Positions 2,707-16,100 of a DNA stretch of 16,100 bases are shown one piece after another. The stretch lies in the UHGV virus genome UHGV-0340572. One strand, given 5' to 3'. The position numbers were made by a program, and so were the translations under genes. This DNA comes from a virus. The notes under the pieces were generated by a model. The model searched no databases, was not told the DNA's origin, and saw nothing but the letters and a program-made list of their open reading frames with translations. The stretch's first letter is position 1. The number at the start of each line of letters is the position of its first letter.

Positions 2707-4872
2707 ATGGCCGACGAAAACAGACTCAATTCCATTCTGTGTAAGTTTGACGCAGACTGGATGGCGAGCGATGAAGCCAGAACCGAGGCGACAAATGACC
2801 TGTATTTTAGCCGAGTGTCGCAATGGGATGACTGGCTATCAAACTACACCACCCTGCAATATCGCGGACAATTTGATGTTGTTCGCCCGGTGGTCAGGAA
2901 GCTGGTCGCAGAGATGCGCCGGAACCCTATCGACGTTCTATTCAGACCAAAAGACGGAGCTAATCCTGATGCTGCCGATGTGCTGATGGGGATGTATCGT
3001 ACTGATATGCGCCATAACACGGCAAAAATTGCCGTTAACGTTGGCGTTCGTGAGCAGATAGAGTCTGGCGTTGGCGCATGGCGTCTGGTCACGCAGTACG
3101 AAGACAACGACCCAACAAGCAACAATCAGGTAATCCGACGCCTTCCAATCCATGAAGCCTGCTCACACGTCATATGGGACGCCAACAGCAAGCAGATGGA
3201 TAAGAGCGACGCTAAGCACTGCACGGTGATTAACGCCTTGTCACGCAATGGCTGGAAAGAGTTCGCAGAGGATTACGGTATTGATCCGGATACCTTGCCA
3301 TCTTTCCAGAATCCGAACGATACATGGCTGTTTCCGTGGGTATCGAATGATGTCGTCTACGTCGCTGAGTATTACGAGGTAGAAGAGAAGAAGGAGAAAG
3401 TCTTCATCTACCGCGACCCGCTGACAGGTGAGCCGGTCAGCTATTACCAGCAGGATATCAAAGACGTCATCGACGACCTGGCTAATCGTGGATTCATTAA
3501 GGTAGCAGAGCGTAAGGTCAAGCGTCGGCGTGTGTATAAGTCGATCATCACCTGCACGCAGATACTGAAAGACCGCGAGAAGATAGCCGGAGAGCATATC
3601 CCAATCGTTCCTGTGTACGGCGAATGGTCATTCGCTGGTGACAAGGAGTGCTACGAAGGTGTGGTAAGGCTGACGAAAGACGGTCAACGCCTTCGTAACA
3701 TGATCATGTCATTCAACGCCGATATTGTTGCTCGTTCACCGAAGAAGAAACCGACCTTCTTTCCTGAGCAAATCGAAGGCTACGAATACATGTACGGTGG
3801 AAATGATGACTATCCGTACTATTTGCAGAACAAGACCGATGAAAACGGTAATGACCTGCCGATTGGTCCAATCTCCTACATGGAAAACCCTGAAGTGCCG
3901 CAAGCCAACGCTTACATGCTTGAGGCTGCCACCAACGCAGTGAAAGAGGTGGCTAGTCTTGGCGTGGATGCGCAGGCGGCAAATGGTCAGGTCGCTTTCG
4001 ATACCGTCAATCAACTGAACATGCGGGCAGACCTTGAGACATACGTGTTTCAGGATAACCTGGCTACCGCAATGCGACGTGATGGCGAGATTTATGCCTC
4101 AATGGTCAATGATATTTATGACGTTCCTCGTCATGTAACGCTGACACTTGAAGATGGAAGCGAGAAAGACGTTCAACTCTATGCGCAAGTTGTCGATTAC
4201 CAGTCCGGCAATGTGGTCACACTCAACGACATTCGCGGTCGCTATGAGTGCTATACAGACGTTGGACCATCCTTCCAGAGCATGAAGGAACAGAATCGCG
4301 CAGAGATTCAGGAGTTGCTAACAAAGGTTCCGCAAGGTACTCCAGAGTTCCAGATGCTGATGCTGCAATACTTCACGCTGCTTGACGGTAAAGGCGTCGA
4401 GATGATGCGAGAGTACGCGAACAAGCAACTGGTGATGATGGGGCTGAAGAAACCAGAAACACCTGAAGAGATGGAGATGGTACAGCAGGCTCAACAGCAG
4501 CCGCAGCAGCCATCAGCAGAGCAAATTCAGGCTCAGGGTATCCTTCTGCAAGGTCAGGCTGAATTGCTCAAGGCAGAGAACCAACAGGCGCAGATTCAGG
4601 TTGAAGCCGCCAAGGTTGAAGCCCAAAACCAACTCAACGCCGCGAAGATTGCAGAAATCTTCAACAATATGGACCTCGACAAGCAGGCAGAACTGCGTGA
4701 GTACCTCAAGCTCGTAGGTCAATTCCAGCAACAGCGCAGCAAAGACGCTCGCGCTAACGCTGAGCTGCTTCTTAAAGATGCAGACCAGACTCATTCACAA
4801 CGCATGGATTTCGCGAATCTTATGCGTCAAGTTCAAATCCCCTCCGGCGGAGTAGCCGAGACACCTCAATAA
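2707..4872 (+). CDS. 1: portal protein (P22 gp1-like), 721 aa
   Basis: ATG directly follows the TAA stop of gene 2. Size (721 aa vs about 725 in P22), N-terminus [28 protein letters not shown] and a Gln-rich helical C-terminal extension are typical of the P22 portal. Confidence 0.93.
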
Positions 4873-11276: not shown

Positions 11277-12665
11277 ATGGCTACTTGGCAAGGAACAAAC
11301 GGCGGATTGTTGGCTGGTATCGGCGGCGTCAACTCAAACGCTCCGAGCGTAAATGACATCGGCAATACGCTTCAGCTTATCAGGCAGAACAATGATATTG
11401 AGCGTTCAGGCGCTAACAATGTTGGGCTGACTGCTTTGCAAGGCCTTTCAGGTATTGCGGGGGTGTTTCAGCAGGAAAAGCAGGCTCAGCGGCAGAAAGA
11501 ATTTCAGCAGGCATACGCTAATGCTTATGCGTCTGGTGATCGCGGTGCTTTGCGTCAGTTGGCTACTCAATATCCAGAACAGATTGAATCCGTTCGTAAA
11601 GGCATGGGATTCATTGATGAAGACCAGCGTAATTCTATCGGCACCTTAGCGGCTGGCGCACGCCTTGCGTCATCGTCTCCAGAAGCAATGCAATCATGGC
11701 TGCAAAACAACGCCAAGGAACTGACTCGCGTCGGTGTTGACCCTAACAGCGTTGCTCAGATGTATCAGCAGAACCCTTCAGGATTTGGTGAGTTTGTTGA
11801 TCACCTTGGAATGGCTGCTCTTGGTCCAATTGATTACTTCAATGTTCAGGACAAGATGGCTGGTCGTGAGATTGATCGCGGGAAACTTGCAGAGACAATC
11901 CGCAGCAATCAGGCTGGCGAGGCGCTAACAGCACGAGGCCAGAACATCACGATGCGCGGTCAGGACTTATCTGCTTCTACTGCGCGACGAGGTCAGGATT
12001 TGGCAATGCAGCGAGCGTCAACAAGAGGAATCGCTGGGAATGATGAGCGTACAGTTCAGTTATCAGATGGCAGAACTGTAACGGTAGGCGGGAAGCTTCA
12101 TGGCGCTGGGGCTAATGCGTTCTACGAAGGCATCGACAACGATGGGAATATGGTTCGCGTCCCTGCCAGTTCAATCGCTGCGCCTGCAACATCGTCTGCA
12201 TCAGCACAAAACTATGCCATGAAGAAGGATATCGACGCGATCGCAAATGCAGACGCTTCTGCTCTCGATTTCATGACAGGAATGACAGGTGGTGCAGGTA
12301 ATCCAGCAATTGGTGCTGATGTTCGCAGCCGATTAACGGGAAAAGAGCAGCGCCAGTTATATAACTCAGCACAACGTATTCAGGGCAGAATGCAGAATCA
12401 GGGTGTGGCGGCAGCAAGGGACATGGGTGCCAGTGGTATTAACACCGTTGCAGAAGCGAAGATGTATTTTCAGGGGATGCCGCAGGTTGACTATTCAAGC
12501 CCGGAGGCTATGCAGCAGTCGATTCGTGAGATTCAGGAATACACCAACAATTACAACCAACAATATAACGTTAATGTTGGTAAATCTCAGCGGCAGCAAT
12601 CTCAACCTGCACAGGTATCACAGCCAGCAGCCAGCAGTAACTTTTCTTCACTATGGGGTGATTAA
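11277..12665 (+). CDS. 20: ejection protein gp20-like, 462 aa
   Basis: Position after gene 7 and size near P22 gp20 (471 aa); RBS AAGGGG 5 nt upstream; stop overlaps the next start (TAATG). Confidence 0.82.
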
Positions 12666-14662
12666 TGGCTAAAGCATGGAAAGATGTTATCGCCTCTCCA
12701 CAGTATCAGGCGTTAGCACCAGAACAAAAAGCGCAGGCTCAGGAGCAATACTTCAATGAAGTCGTTGCCCCGCAAGCCGGAGAAAATGCAGAGCGGGCTA
12801 AGCAAGCTTTCTATGCTGCCTATCCATTGCCATCTGTGCAGCCAGTGGGGACACAGCAACCAGTAGCACAGCAACAACCACAGCAAAGTGGATTCATGTC
12901 TGATCTTGGCGAAGCAGTAAAAGAGACTGGTCGCGGAATGGTGCAGGCTGGCGTGAACGTGGCAAACATACCTGCATCAGTTGCCGATGCTGTAACAAGC
13001 GCGGCGGCTTGGGCTGGCGGTAAACTCGGCATTGGCGATGGTACATATCAACCAGCACCACGAGTAACAACGCAGGGATTAGAGCAGGACTTTGGCCTTC
13101 AGCAAGGTGCGCTGACTCCACAAACGACAGAGGGAAAGGTATTTGCTGAAGCATTGCCTTACCTCACTCCTGCTGGCGTTGAGAGAGCGGCGGTACAGGC
13201 ACCAACACTTGCTGGTCGAATTGCTCAGGGGGCAACTCGCCTTCTAGCAGAAAACGCAGTTGGATCACTTGCTGCAAACAGTGCGAAAGATGATGCGGAA
13301 GCACTCGCCACCGATTTAGGCGTTGGTGTGCTGGCTGGCGGTGCTATTAACGCTGCCGGACGTGGATTAGGTGCTGCTTATCGTGGTGTTCGTGGTTCGA
13401 TAGCACCAGAAGCTCAACAGGCTATCAGGTTTGCAGAGCGTGAAGGAGTTCCTCTGCACACCACAGACCTGTTACAGCCTACTTCCCGCGTCGGGAAAAT
13501 GGCGCAGACTACAGCAGAAAATATCCCCCTGGCTGGCACAAGCGGAATGAGAGCAACGCAACAGGAAGCGAGAAGCCAGTTGGTGCAGAGATTTGCCGAT
13601 AAATTCGGTGAGTATGATCCAGCGGTTGTTATTGACAGCCTTAAAGCGAAAACATCAGGAATTCGTCGTGCCGCCGGTAATCGACTGGAGCAGGTTCAGA
13701 ATGCTATGGCTGGAGTAAACATTCAGCCTGCGCGAGCAATTCAGCAGATTGATACAGAAATATCTAATCTGCAGAAGCTTGGTAAGGTTGCTGATAACGA
13801 GACTATTTCAAAACTTCAGTCATATCGTGATGAGCTTGTTCGCAATGCTGGTCCTGATGGTCCGGTAAATCTGGATTTGAAGCAATTAAGCGATCTGCGC
13901 AGCCAGTTCAGAATGGACGTGAAGGGTGAACGACCAGTGTTACCAAACCGTTCCGATGCTGCCATTCAGCGCGTTTACAAGGCGATGACAGACGATATCA
14001 ATGGTGCCATTGGTCAGAATCTTGGCAACGATACTCTCCGTAAATATCAGCAGGCCAATGCCGTATACGCTGACGAAGCGGCGAAACTAAAGAATACCAG
14101 GCTGAAGAATGTTCTCATGAAAGGCGACCTGACGCCGGAAGTTGTCAACAACATGCTATTCAGCAAGAACAAATCGGAAATTAAGACGCTGTATAACTCA
14201 GTTGGTCGCGTTGGAAGAGCGCAAATGCGCAATGGCATCATTGGAAAGGCGATAGAGAAATCAGGTGGTTCACCTGACCAGTTCCTTCGACAGCTTAACA
14301 TCCTGCAAAACCAGACTGGCATCACATTTAAAGGTCAGGAAGCCGCTTATCTGAAAGGATTGAAAAACTACCTTCAGTCCACTCAGCAGGCAGCAAAAGC
14401 GGCAGTAACAACACCAACAGGGCAGCAAACCATCCCGTTCATTATCGGATATGGGACGGCAATGAACCCGGCGACAACTGGCGCAGCAGTAAGCTACGGA
14501 CTTCTTACTCGCGCCTATGAGAGCGAGCCATTCAGAAATGCAATGCTCCGAATGGCAAACACACCACGCGGATCAACAGCGTTTGAGAAAGTCATGCAGC
14601 AGGCGCAAAAGGCCATTAACGCCCTGACTCAGGGTGCCAAGTCTGATGCGTTGTCAGAATAG
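12665..14662 (+). CDS. 16: ejection protein gp16-like, 665 aa
   Basis: Last gene of the ejection-protein trio by synteny; Ala/Gly/Gln-rich; longer than the 609 aa I recall for P22 gp16. Confidence 0.82.
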   Translation: MAKAWKDVIASPQYQALAPEQKAQAQEQYFNEVVAPQAGENAERAKQAFYAAYPLPSVQPVGTQQPVAQQQPQQSGFMSDLGEAVKETGRGMVQAGVNVANIPASVADAVTSAAAWAGGKLGIGDGTYQPAPRVTTQGLEQDFGLQQGALTPQTTEGKVFAEALPYLTPAGVERAAVQAPTLAGRIAQGATRLLAENAVGSLAANSAKDDAEALATDLGVGVLAGGAINAAGRGLGAAYRGVRGSIAPEAQQAIRFAEREGVPLHTTDLLQPTSRVGKMAQTTAENIPLAGTSGMRATQQEARSQLVQRFADKFGEYDPAVVIDSLKAKTSGIRRAAGNRLEQVQNAMAGVNIQPARAIQQIDTEISNLQKLGKVADNETISKLQSYRDELVRNAGPDGPVNLDLKQLSDLRSQFRMDVKGERPVLPNRSDAAIQRVYKAMTDDINGAIGQNLGNDTLRKYQQANAVYADEAAKLKNTRLKNVLMKGDLTPEVVNNMLFSKNKSEIKTLYNSVGRVGRAQMRNGIIGKAIEKSGGSPDQFLRQLNILQNQTGITFKGQEAAYLKGLKNYLQSTQQAAKAAVTTPTGQQTIPFIIGYGTAMNPATTGAAVSYGLLTRAYESEPFRNAMLRMANTPRGSTAFEKVMQQAQKAINALTQGAKSDALSE

Positions 14663-14731
14663 CTTCGCAAACACCAGAAACGTGCAAAAACCAAATATGT
14701 AGAACGCAATATTCATCATATCTCTTTGCAT
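14654..14731 (-). CDS. candidate small hydrophobic peptide, 25 aa (MQRDMMNIAFYIFGFCTFLVFAKLF)
   Basis: On the - strand, 20 nt after the mnt stop: GGAGG, 4-nt spacer, ATG, then 25 codons forming one hydrophobic, transmembrane-like segment; the TGA stop overlaps the last codons of gene 16 antisense. Too short to be in the ORF track. Could equally be a deletion remnant. Confidence 0.3.
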   Translation of the reverse strand: MQRDMMNIAFYIFGFCTFLVFAKLF

Positions 14732-14751
14732 AAATCCTCCGTAATGGATGG

Positions 14752-15012
14752 TTAGTTGCTGTCTTTTTTATATAGCTCCTTGAGCGTATCAAAGACAATT
14801 TTCTTAACCATATCAGATTGTTGTTCTGCCATACGCTCTGCATCGTCAATGTAAACTGATGCAGAGCTTTGTTTATCCAATGATTCCTCAATCGCTGCAA
14901 TTATCTCTGAGTTCAGCGACCTGTTATTCATCTTCGCACGCTGCTTAATTTTCGCGTGAAGTTCATGCGGAAGTCTCAAGTGAAACTGCGCCTCGTCGTA
15001 TTTGCTGTACAT
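14752..15012 (-). CDS. mnt: Mnt-like ribbon-helix-helix repressor, 86 aa
   Basis: The track ORF (14752-15510, -) is over-extended across the tailspike start. From the internal ATG at 15012 the protein MYSKYDEAQFHLRLPHELHAKIKQRAKMNNRSLNSEIIAAIEESL...DDAERMAEQQSDMVKKIVFDTLKELYKK matches P22 Mnt as I recall it (HFNFRMPMEVREKLKFRAEANGRSMNSELLQIVQDAL...NDAERLADEQSELVKKMVFDTLKDLYKK). GAGG lies 8 nt upstream on the - strand. Confidence 0.8.
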   Translation of the reverse strand: MYSKYDEAQFHLRLPHELHAKIKQRAKMNNRSLNSEIIAAIEESLDKQSSASVYIDDAERMAEQQSDMVKKIVFDTLKELYKKDSN

Positions 15013-15147
15013 CCTTGATGCCTCACCAGTTGGGTGGAATGGCATCGTAAAACCTACTGTACAAATCAACAATCGTACCGTTTCGGTATGCAACAAACAC
15101 CAACCGTAGCCACGCTGCGGCGATTCCTTGTATCTGGAGCAAATTAA
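15013..15147. promoter_or_regulatory. divergent intergenic region between mnt and tailspike; probable promoter/operator region
   Basis: 135-bp non-coding gap between divergently oriented genes. Contains the inverted repeat TACCG-TTT-CGGTA (15076-15088), the palindromic hexamer TGTACA (15058-15063) and the imperfect 17-bp palindrome CCGTAGCCACGCTGCGG (15103-15119). I could not pick out convincing -35/-10 hexamers by eye. Confidence 0.4.
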
Positions 15148-16100
15148 ATGACAGACATTACAGCCAATGTGATTGTATCGATGCCTTCGCAACTCTTCAC
15201 TATGGCGCGTTCTTTTAAAGCTGTAGCCAATGGCAAAATTTATATCGGTAAAATTGACACTGACCCTGTAAATCCAGAAAACCAGATTCAGGTTTATGTG
15301 GAGAACGAAGACGGCTCTCACGTTCCTGTTTCGCAACCAATCATCATTAATGCTGCTGGATATCCGGTATATAACGGACAGATTGCCAAATTCGTAACTG
15401 AGCAAGGCCATTCTATGGCTGTATATGATGCGTATGGCACGCAGCAGTTCTATTTCCCTAATGTGCTGAAGTACGACCCTGATCAATTTGAGATTAGGCT
15501 TTCTAATCAAGACGGCGCTGGTCTTGTTGGGATTATGCCATATGGCACGGTACAGGATGCCATCAAATGGGTTGTCCCCGAGGTATTCCCCGGAAGTAAT
15601 GCGTCAGAAAAATTACAGGCAGCTGTAAATTATGCGGTTGCAAACAAAACGAGAGTTGTAGCATCAGGTGTGTACGATGTAACGGCCCCCGTCACCATCC
15701 CAGGAGACATCATTATCGATGCTTCTACTGGAGAATTTACCTTCAATGGCATTGATTATATTTTCCATCCGCTTGGCGCAAAATCAGTAGAGATTATCGG
15801 TGGTAAGTTCACCGCAAATGCATACCACACCCAGCGTCCTCAGGTAATTTTCAATGATTACCCTGATGGGCTGGCGAATTTGCCAACGCGAGTGGTGATA
15901 AAAGATATGCAATGCTTTAACTGCGGTGTTGGCTACATCATGGTTAACTGTCAGGACCCAACCAGCGTACATGTCTCAGTTGATAATAACTACTGCAAGA
16001 CTGATGACAACACAGATCAGTATATCTCTGATGCAGGAATGTCAGGTGAACAGGGTGAGGTATATCCATATCTGATGATTCTTGGCAACACGACTGCATC
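15148..16100 (+). CDS. 9: tailspike protein, 5' portion (truncated at window end); P22-type N-terminal head-binding domain with a different receptor-binding domain
   Basis: ATG at 15148 with GGAG 9 nt upstream. Translation MTDITANVIVSMPSQLFTMARSFKAVANGKIYIGKIDTDPVNPENQIQVY...NVLKYDPDQF matches the conserved P22-family tailspike head-binding domain. After about residue 113 the sequence (IRLSNQDGAGLVGIMPYGTVQDAIKWV...) no longer resembles P22 gp9 as I recall it. Open to the window end, so absent from the ORF track. Confidence 0.85.
   Translation, partial: MTDITANVIVSMPSQLFTMARSFKAVANGKIYIGKIDTDPVNPENQIQVYVENEDGSHVPVSQPIIINAAGYPVYNGQIAKFVTEQGHSMAVYDAYGTQQFYFPNVLKYDPDQFEIRLSNQDGAGLVGIMPYGTVQDAIKWVVPEVFPGSNASEKLQAAVNYAVANKTRVVASGVYDVTAPVTIPGDIIIDASTGEFTFNGIDYIFHPLGAKSVEIIGGKFTANAYHTQRPQVIFNDYPDGLANLPTRVVIKDMQCFNCGVGYIMVNCQDPTSVHVSVDNNYCKTDDNTDQYISDAGMSGEQGEVYPYLMILGNTTA

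What the first reader, a model, noticed from the sequence alone, without database searches (positions are those of the whole stretch)
14752..15012. Orphan Mnt-like repressor with an altered DNA-reading beta-strand and no arc/ant partner
The protein has the Mnt-type C-terminal tetramerisation helix (DDAERMAEQQSDMVKKIVFDTLKELYKK), but the N-terminal ribbon that reads the operator is QFHLRL, where I recall HFNFRM in P22 Mnt and QFNLRW in Arc. The His-for-Asn change at a base-contacting position predicts a different operator specificity. In P22, mnt is followed by arc and ant before gene 9; here mnt abuts the tailspike gene directly, so the normal target of Mnt (the ant promoter) is absent. The repressor may have been retargeted, possibly to a promoter in front of the tailspike gene, or serve as immunity against a related ant-carrying phage.
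Basis: partly seen in the sequence, partly recalled or inferred. Interest (0 to 1): 0.65.

Follow-up and report, generated by a model that had tools for sequence, protein, structure and literature searches.

The report
Orphan Mnt repressor beside tailspike gene
This is a real, intact Mnt-type phage repressor that has lost its usual antirepressor partner genes but keeps its own matching DNA site and promoter. The layout is common in E. coli prophages and already described in related phages, so it is a modest variant and not a surprise.

Summary
Window 14752-15012 (-) encodes an 86-aa Mnt homologue: Pfam Arc plus Repressor_Mnt domains, 49% identical to P22 Mnt. Its DNA-reading strand is QFHLRL, against HFNFRM in P22 Mnt and QFNLRW in Arc. 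It lies 135 bp from the tailspike start, with no arc or ant.

The layout is not rare. It occurs in 133 of 5426 complete E. coli genomes, in phages Sf101 and IME10, and with other Mnt types in phages L, ST64T, ST160, Gally and Brookers. "mnt-only ant morons" were described in 2008 and 2020.

The predicted change of specificity is supported. A single 17-bp dyad (CGTACCGTTTCGGTATG, 15074-15090) sits where P22 Omnt sits. Across 93 distinct upstream sequences the dyad type tracks the beta-strand type without exception.

Retargeting to a tailspike promoter is not supported. All orphan lineages keep the leftward mnt promoter in P22 register, with the operator at about -45. None has a rightward promoter above noise, whereas every arc/ant-carrying module has a strong one.

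The gene is under purifying selection (omega about 0.14-0.21). Most likely it is an autoregulated, prophage-expressed repressor whose further role is unknown. I rate it a new variant of a known kind, of modest interest.

The parts
14752..15012 (-). mnt-like gene, 86 aa. It has an N-terminal ribbon-helix-helix domain with Gln9, His11 and Arg13 on the DNA-reading strand, and a C-terminal Mnt-type tetramerisation helix.
   Evidence: Purifying selection.
15074..15090 (.). Candidate operator, the 17-bp dyad CGTACCGTTTCGGTATG (core TACC-N5-GGTA). Its centre, 15082, lies 70 bp from the mnt ATG. The P22 Omnt centre lies 66 bp from its mnt ATG.
   Evidence: There is one copy per locus, none in other Mnt classes, and it is unique in the whole Sf101 genome.
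15044..15072 (-). Predicted leftward mnt promoter. The -35 is TTGTTG (reverse complement of 15067-15072), the spacer is 17 nt, and the -10 is TACGAT (reverse complement of 15044-15049). The predicted start is about 15037, which puts the operator centre at about -45.
   Evidence: The register matches the annotated P22 Pmnt and is conserved in all 12 orphan lineages.
15017..15046 (.). Conserved dyad or stem-loop, GATGCC-T-CACC-AGTTG-GGTG-GAAT-GGCATC. It spans from the mnt Shine-Dalgarno (GAGG, reverse complement of 15021-15024) to the -10 of the mnt promoter. It is present in orphan modules and absent from P22.
   Evidence: Role unknown.
15103..15147 (+). Tailspike leader, or 'boundary sequence' (ACCGTAGCCACGCTGCGGCGATTCCTTGTATCTGGAGCAAATTAA). 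It is homologous to the P22 gene 9 leader and contains the tailspike ribosome-binding site.
   Evidence: CUS-3 annotates the equivalent stretch as bsq1.
15148..16100 (+). 5' part of the tailspike gene (head-binding domain, MTDITANV...). It runs off the end of the window.
12665..14662 (+). Homologue of P22 gene 16 (DNA ejection protein), the last gene of the late operon before the mnt module.
14654..14731 (-). Possible 25-codon hydrophobic ORF (MQRDMMNIAFYIFGFCTFLVFAKLF). GGAGG lies 4 nt before its ATG, which is 20 nt downstream of the mnt stop on the same strand.
   Evidence: Tentative.

Best explanation
This is the minimal form of the variable 'ant moron' that P22-like phages carry between gene 16 and the tailspike gene. 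It consists of a Mnt-family repressor, its own leftward promoter and one cognate operator. There is no arc, ant or sar, and no Pant.

Inferred from homology: the protein forms a Mnt-type tetramer and is expressed from the prophage.

Inferred from position and from co-variation with the beta-strand: it binds the 17-bp dyad at 15074-15090 through Gln9, His11 and Arg13.

The dyad is centred about 45 bp upstream of the predicted mnt transcription start, exactly as Omnt is in P22. With no opposing promoter present, the only in-cis target is its own leftward transcript. That transcript carries mnt and possibly the 25-codon ORF downstream. The direct effect is therefore autoregulation, of unknown sign.

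The tailspike gene is served by late-operon read-through, antisense to mnt, and not by a Mnt-controlled promoter.

The gene is maintained by selection, so it has a function beyond being a relic. What that function is remains open.
For: - Family membership: both Pfam domains score well above their cut-offs, and 1mnt and 1qey match.
- Anatomy: gene 16, then mnt (-), then a 135-bp gap, then tailspike. The same layout occurs in 133 of 5426 complete E. coli genomes and in Sf101 and IME10. In IMG/VR it occurs in all of the best 80 loci that have enough flank.
- Operator by homology: Sf101, P22 and Gally share the CTCAATA box immediately before the dyad. The distance from the mnt ATG to the dyad centre is 66-70 bp in all.
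- Strand and dyad classes: QFHLRL goes with GTACCRT-T-YGGTAC in 33/33 distinct upstream sequences. QFNLR[LIM] and QFNFRM go with AGACCAC in 53/53. HFNFRM goes with GGTCCAC in 3/3. QFKLRM goes with GAACCAC in 2/2.
- Breadth: the QFHLRL class spans Escherichia, Shigella and Salmonella phages and Buttiauxella, Serratia and Citrobacter genomes.
- Mosaic proteins: JEP4 and VSe13 have a different C-terminal half but keep the same N-terminal domain and the same dyad.
- Copy number: one operator copy per locus, always at the same place, and none elsewhere in the 38.7-kb Sf101 genome.
- Promoters: the scan reproduces the annotated P22 Pant and Pmnt. All 12 orphan lineages keep Pmnt (scores 8-11) with the operator at -43 to -45. 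The best rightward score at the Pant position is 6.2 or less, against 11-16 in the four arc-carrying modules.
- Selection: 43 synonymous and 38 non-synonymous variants in 57 distinct coding sequences give omega of about 0.21. The window against Escherichia sp. gives dN/dS 0.14. Only 2 of about 90 copies are disrupted.
Against: - No binding or transcript data exist. The operator and promoter are inferred from homology and co-variation among related sequences, which are not phylogenetically independent.
- A repressor whose only visible target is its own promoter has no obvious selective value, so something is missing from the picture.
- In the commonest (Sf101-type) intergenic form, the spacer of the mnt promoter is 15 bp, which is poor.
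- In the Proteus, Providencia and Symbiopectobacterium lineages of the QFNLRL class, the right half of the dyad is degenerate.
- A weak or non-sigma-70 rightward promoter cannot be excluded by a consensus scan.
Confidence: 0.55

Rival explanations
1. Trans-acting immunity. The prophage-made Mnt exists to shut off the antirepressor promoter of incoming related phages that carry the same operator, which protects the resident prophage from induction.
For: In P22, Mnt made by the prophage controls ant (established knowledge; PMC2629481). In the sister QFNLRL class, orphan modules share the AAGACCAC half-site with arc-carrying modules that have a strong Pant (L272 and L273). A trans target therefore plausibly exists for that class. 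Purifying selection without an in-cis target also fits.
Against: For the QFHLRL class, all 88 loci sampled are orphans. A scan of IMG/VR for TTGACA-N26-36-GTACCNTTTNGGTA gave 30 hits, which is roughly what I estimate by hand for chance. None was next to a Mnt, Arc or Ant homologue. The scan was narrow, because it required an exact -35 and an exact operator core.
Confidence: 0.2
2. Retargeting to the tailspike gene. Mnt represses a promoter in the 135-bp gap that drives the tailspike gene.
For: The operator lies 58-74 bp upstream of the tailspike ATG. The skeleton of Pant is still recognisable in register (ATGGCA at 15040-15045 against TTGACA). In P22, Pant transcripts and the ant moron are thought to affect tailspike level (PMC2629481).
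Against: No rightward promoter scores above noise in any of the 12 orphan lineages. The window's best is 4.4, against 16.0 for P22 Pant. The consensus scan also found none in the gap. The tailspike leader is the same late-operon leader as in P22.
Confidence: 0.1
3. Decaying relic. After arc and ant were lost, mnt is a functionless remnant on its way to deletion, as in Sf6, which has none.
For: It has no evident target. The phage L authors raised this for L's mnt (PMC8022706). Sf6 lacks the whole module at the same joint. Two disrupted copies were seen.
Against: Omega is about 0.14-0.21. The beta-strand is invariant in 30 protein variants. Gene, promoter and operator are conserved between genera where synonymous sites are saturated. 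The operator has co-evolved with the protein in several classes.
Confidence: 0.1

Closest known systems
P22 Mnt repressor (immI region: mnt-arc-sar-ant)
   Same: Same two-domain architecture: ribbon-helix-helix plus C-terminal tetramerisation helix. Identity is 49%. Same genomic slot between gene 16 and the tailspike gene, and same leftward orientation. A 17-bp dyad lies at the same distance from the gene and in the same register (about -45) to the mnt promoter.
   Different: The base-reading residues are Gln/His/Arg instead of His/Asn/Arg, and the N-terminal arm differs. The operator half-site is GTACCRT instead of GGTCCAC. There is no Pant, Arc operator, arc, sar or ant. A conserved 30-bp dyad occupies the place of the Arc operator.
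mnt-only 'ant morons' of phages L, ST64T, ST104, ST160/SE1, Gally and Brookers
   Same: Orphan mnt abutting the tailspike gene across 110-146 bp. They share the same promoter skeleton, the same GATGCC...GGCATC dyad (not in the Proteus group), no rightward promoter, and unknown function (PMC2629481, PMC8022706).
   Different: Those proteins read QFNLRL and their dyad is AAGACCAC-N-GTGGTCTT. Identity to the window protein is 47-59%. Some have a terminator or a lipoprotein gene after mnt.
Sf101 gp14, the unannotated IME10 ORF, and E. coli prophage 'Arc family DNA-binding protein' WP_047651882
   Same: Essentially the same protein (96.5-100% identical), the same operator and the same layout.
   Different: None of substance. 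Sf101 gp14 is mislabelled 'partition protein ATPase' and is started 33 nt too early. The Sf101 paper does not mention Mnt, antirepressor or immunity.
P22 Arc repressor
   Same: Same fold of the DNA-binding domain. The residue numbering of the reading strand is identical (Gln9, X11, Arg13).
   Different: Arc has no tetramerisation helix, has Asn at position 11, and uses a 21-bp operator. The match is weak (E about 1e-3).

Membership tests
Mnt repressor family | N-terminal ribbon-helix-helix (Arc-like) DNA-binding domain | tested here: met
   Pfam PF03869, 54.8 bits against a cut-off of 20.4. 1mnt matches with E 5e-19 over aa 6-79.
Mnt repressor family | C-terminal Mnt tetramerisation helix | tested here: met
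   Pfam PF11423, 52.7 bits against a cut-off of 20.9. 1qey matches with E 1.7e-8. This is sequence evidence only; the oligomeric state was not modelled.
Mnt repressor family | Encoded leftward between gene 16 and the tailspike gene of a P22-like phage | tested here: met
Mnt repressor family | Symmetric 17-bp operator upstream of its own promoter | tested here: met
   A dyad lies at 15074-15090, at the Omnt-homologous position, and co-varies with the beta-strand. Binding itself was not tested.
Mnt repressor family | Sequence-specific tetramer binding to that operator | not testable with these tools
   Needs EMSA or footprinting.
P22 immI (immunity I) region | Antirepressor gene ant controlled by Mnt through Pant | tested here: not met
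   No Ant homologue was found in the window, the Sf101 genome or an E. coli prophage. No rightward promoter was found.
P22 immI (immunity I) region | Arc repressor, Arc operator and sar antisense RNA | tested here: not met
   No Arc homologue. No Rfam match in 14500-15400. The Arc-operator position is occupied by an unrelated dyad.
'ant moron' of P22-like phages (Villafane et al. 2008), mnt-only type | Variable, independently expressed insert between gene 16 and the tailspike gene that contains mnt but neither arc nor ant | tested here: met
   Definition from PMC2629481. Here mnt is the only sizeable gene of the insert.

The most novel reading that the evidence does not exclude
Orphan Mnt modules (repressor, one operator, own promoter and a conserved stem-loop, always abutting the tailspike gene) are a selected, self-contained prophage function unrelated to antirepressor control. 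One possibility is a protein-DNA or antisense checkpoint at the junction between the late operon and the tailspike gene. Another is the regulated expression of a small membrane peptide from the prophage. On this reading the several natural strand/operator classes form a ready-made recognition code for ribbon-helix-helix proteins.
Probability: 0.25. Interest if true: 0.55.

Novelty: new variant of a known kind. Interest (0 to 1): 0.3.

Why it matters
Mnt and Arc are textbook models of DNA recognition by a beta-ribbon. The natural series found here pairs changes at two reading positions with specific changes in the half-site:
- His/Asn with GGTCCAC
- Gln/Asn with AGACCAC
- Gln/Lys with GAACCAC
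- Gln/His with GTACCRT

These pairings can be tested directly with residue and operator swaps.

Biologically, the result shows that 'mnt-only' modules are conserved and selected in many enterobacterial prophages, although they lack the only known reason for having Mnt. That turns a remark in the phage L and epsilon34 papers into a defined question. Practically, it corrects mis-annotations ('partition protein ATPase', a wrong start codon, an unannotated gene in IME10).

Tried and rejected
1. Second Mnt site. The inner arms of the 15017-15046 dyad (CACC-N5-GGTG) share ACC-N5-GGT with the operator, and the joint pattern is unique to these two sites in the window. That pattern was derived post hoc from the two sites. 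The inner arms also differ within the QFHLRL class (Buttiauxella GTCC/GGAC, Serratia none). I rejected it as a Mnt site.

2. Strand of the stem-loop. I first read G-U wobbles in the Gally type as evidence for a plus-strand RNA. When counted as events, wobble-compatible changes are about equal on the two strands. No strand can be assigned. Compensatory support is thin: 2 pairs, with 27 of 500 shuffles as good.

3. A second leftward promoter with the operator between its -35 and -10 scores well in Buttiauxella and Serratia (12.0 and 10.7) but poorly in the window (4.8). It is not general.

4. A per-position conservation profile of the intergenic region and a first variant count for the small ORF were spoiled by sequences carrying indels. 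I discarded both; redid the ORF count cleanly.

5. The IMG/VR scan for a strong -35 plus this operator gave only chance-level hits. One hit, L298, has two GTACCAnnnTGGTAC palindromes in a strong promoter. It is a CI/Cro-type helix-turn-helix immunity region of an unrelated AT-rich phage, so the resemblance is a coincidence.

6. The inverted-repeat finder and the consensus promoter/terminator scan found nothing in the gap at default stringency. The dyads were found by eye and by comparison.

7. Rfam gave no match.

8. The primary papers on Mnt contact residues (Knight & Sauer 1989; Man & Stormo 2001) are not held in the library. The contact roles of Mnt His6, Asn8 and Arg10 and of Arc Gln9, Asn11 and Arg13 rest on my own knowledge and on secondary citations (PMC3413123, PMC3325190).

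Full report
**1. What is there**

The window is the late region of a P22-like (Lederbergvirus) prophage. It runs from terminase through portal, scaffold and coat to the ejection proteins. The gene 16 homologue lies at 12665-14662 (+), and the tailspike gene starts at 15148 (+).

Between them, on the minus strand, 14752-15012 encodes an 86-aa protein. It matches Pfam Arc (aa 7-49, 54.8 bits) and Repressor_Mnt (aa 57-82, 52.7 bits), both far above their cut-offs. It also matches the solved Mnt N-terminal dimer (1mnt, E 5e-19) and the Mnt tetramerisation domain (1qey, E 1.7e-8). Identity to P22 Mnt is 48.8%.

The reading strand is QFHLRL. P22 Mnt has HFNFRM and P22 Arc has QFNLRW, both verified from the P22 record.

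An in-frame ATG 33 nt upstream (15045) is the start used in the Sf101 record. It overlaps the predicted -10 of the promoter and is out of frame in the other Mnt classes. NCBI's annotation of an E. coli prophage uses the 86-aa start.

**2. How common it is**

The 701-bp stretch covering the end of gene 16, mnt and the tailspike start is present at 80% coverage or more in 133 of 5426 complete E. coli genomes.

Near-identical proteins (96.5-98%) occur in phages IME10 (not annotated), Sf101 (gp14, labelled 'partition protein ATPase') and ECO26.1. IMG/VR holds 228 relatives. In the best 80 (95-100% identical), every locus with enough flank has the gene 110-135 bp from a tailspike start, and QFHLRL is invariant in all 30 protein variants.

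The same orphan layout, with more distant Mnt proteins, occurs in phages Gally, ST160/SE1, L/ST64T/ST104 and Proteus phage Brookers.

The literature already describes this. Villafane et al. [quoted passage not shown] **3. Are arc and ant elsewhere?**

tblastn with P22 Arc and Ant finds nothing significant in three places:
- the window;
- the complete Sf101 genome;
- 40 kb of the E. coli CFSAN061763 prophage, whose Mnt is 100% identical.

That prophage has a KilAC-domain antirepressor gene in its nin region, but no operator copy lies near it.

**4. The operator**

I read the intergenic sequence away from the mnt ATG. Sf101, P22 and Gally share a CTCAATA box followed by a 17-bp odd-length dyad whose centre is 66-70 bp from the ATG:

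| Phage | Dyad |
|---|---|
| P22 (the proven Omnt) | AGGTCCAC-G-GTGGACCT |
| Gally, ST160, L | AAGACCAC-N-GTGGTCTY |
| Sf101 | AGTACCAT-T-TCGGTATG |
| Window (15074-15090) | CGTACCGT-T-TCGGTATG |

Buttiauxella has the perfect palindrome GTACCAtttTGGTAC.

I compiled 202 Mnt-like loci, which gave 93 distinct upstream sequences:

| Beta-strand class | Dyad type | Agreement |
|---|---|---|
| QFHLRL | GTACCRT | 33/33 |
| QFNLR[LIM] and QFNFRM | AGACCAC | 53/53 |
| HFNFRM | GGTCCAC | 3/3 |
| QFKLRM | GAACCAC | 2/2 |

The CC at half-site positions 5-6 and the strand Arg are invariant. JEP4 and VSe13 carry a different C-terminal half but the same N-terminal domain and the same dyad.

The dyad core occurs once per QFHLRL locus, always at the same place. 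It never occurs in loci of the other classes and occurs nowhere else in the Sf101 genome.

These sequences are related, so the counts are not independent events. However, each class spans several genera.

**5. What the operator controls**

I used a simple position-weight scan whose frequencies are my own approximation of published E. coli promoter compilations. It recovers the annotated P22 Pant (TTGACA-17-TATATT, score 16.0) and Pmnt (TTGAGA-17-TATCAT, score 13.6) at exactly their annotated coordinates.

- All four arc-carrying modules (P22, Pluralibacter, L270, L272) have a strong rightward promoter (11.4-16.0). The operator lies at about +7 in L270 and L272 and at about +8 in P22 by hand calculation from the annotated coordinates. 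It was not located for Pluralibacter.
- All 12 orphan lineages keep the leftward promoter in the same register. In the window it is TTGTTG-17-TACGAT with a start near 15037 and the operator centre at -45. Scores are 8-11.
- None of the orphan lineages has a rightward promoter above background (6.2 or less; 4.4 in the window).

The 45 bp before the tailspike ATG are the same 'boundary' leader as in P22. One IMG/VR locus (L035) still has the P22-like spacer between two boundary copies. Relative to Sf6, the whole mnt module is a clean insertion or deletion between the end of gene 16 and that leader.

I therefore do not support retargeting to a tailspike promoter. The only in-cis target is the mnt promoter itself.

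**6. Is it alive?**

Among 57 distinct coding sequences of the E. coli population there are 43 synonymous and 38 non-synonymous variants, giving omega of about 0.21 (0.16 in the DNA-binding half). The window against an Escherichia sp. copy (88% aa identity) gives dN/dS 0.14. Against Buttiauxella, Serratia and the other classes, synonymous sites are saturated while dN is 0.27-0.51. Two copies are disrupted. This argues against a decaying relic.

**7. Function**

Shown by computation and comparison only:
- family membership;
- the layout;
- absence of arc, ant and Pant;
- a co-varying single operator at -45 of a conserved leftward promoter;
- purifying selection.

Inferred:
- tetramer formation;
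- binding to that dyad;
- expression from the prophage;
- autoregulation.

Unknown: why this is selected.

The trans-immunity idea is reasonable for the QFNLRL class, whose half-site also occurs in arc-carrying modules with strong Pant (L272, L273). For the QFHLRL class I found no such partner, either among the 88 loci or by a pattern scan of IMG/VR.

**8. Verdict**

This is a new specificity variant of an already described arrangement. It is of modest interest (0.3), mainly as a natural recognition-code series and as a sharper statement of the open question about mnt-only modules.

Noticed in passing
window 14654-14731 (-): A 25-codon hydrophobic ORF (MQRDMMNIAFYIFGFCTFLVFAKLF) with GGAGG 4 nt before its ATG. 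It starts 20 nt after the mnt stop and overlaps the last 9 nt of gene 16. It is intact in 76 copies (32 distinct sequences). There are 11 synonymous and 13 non-synonymous variants, an omega-like ratio of 0.30 that is weaker once transition bias is allowed for. It has no Pfam, NCBIfam or PHROG match and is unannotated. It is also present in Sf6 and Gally at the end of gene 16, so it is tied to that gene end and not to mnt. In Sf6 its ribosome-binding site is weak.
   Followed up: partly
window 15017-15046: A conserved 30-bp dyad or stem-loop (GATGCC..CACC-loop-GGTG..GGCATC) between the mnt Shine-Dalgarno and the -10 of the mnt promoter. It is found in orphan modules but not in P22. Only the loop varies within E. 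coli. The inner stem differs between lineages: CACTT/AAGTG in L, GTCC/GGAC in Buttiauxella, and outer TTGTC/GACAA in Brookers. Folding energy is -14.9 kcal/mol on the plus strand and -12.7 on the minus strand. Neither the strand nor the function could be determined.
   Followed up: partly
L002/L009 (Sf101 gp14), L005 (P22 mnt in NC_002371), PHROG 795: Mnt homologues are labelled 'partition protein ATPase' in several RefSeq phage records and in PHROG 795. The gene is unannotated in IME10. Sf101 gp14 is started 33 nt too far upstream.
   Followed up: yes
L004 (JEP4) 2841-3098; L003 (VSe13) 2877-3131; L097, L098: Mosaic Mnt proteins. They have the same N-terminal DNA-binding domain (QFHLRL) and the same operator as the window, but an unrelated C-terminal half (...GYRDEEERLASLISEQVKEVAADILRKEKTRS). 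JEP4 also carries a separate C2-like repressor/Rha/KilA cassette on the 3' side of mnt.
   Followed up: partly
L270, L271 (IMG/VR): A further specificity class. Mnt reads QFKLRM and pairs with the perfect dyad TGAACCAC-G-GTGGTTCA. There is a strong rightward promoter and an arc-like gene.
   Followed up: partly
L035 (IMG/VR) upstream of mnt; L005 4543-4563 and 4656-4680: The 'boundary sequence' ACCGTAGCCAYGCT occurs twice in P22, once after the ant terminator and once before gene 9. L035 joins the QFHLRL operator to the first copy and keeps the P22-like 110-bp spacer. This marks the sequence as the recombination joint of the ant moron.
   Followed up: partly
L306 1337-2059 (E. coli CFSAN061763 prophage): The prophage whose Mnt is identical to the window's carries a KilAC-domain antirepressor gene in the nin region. 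There is no copy of the Mnt-type operator near it.
   Followed up: partly
L093 2761-3237 (Brookers); L096 downstream of mnt (Buttiauxella): In these orphan lineages mnt is followed, co-directionally and within about 20-45 nt, by a lipoprotein gene (MKKLIIFSFFLLTGC..., MKKILVIAFAAMALAGC...). This suggests that in some phages the mnt promoter drives an envelope moron.
   Followed up: no
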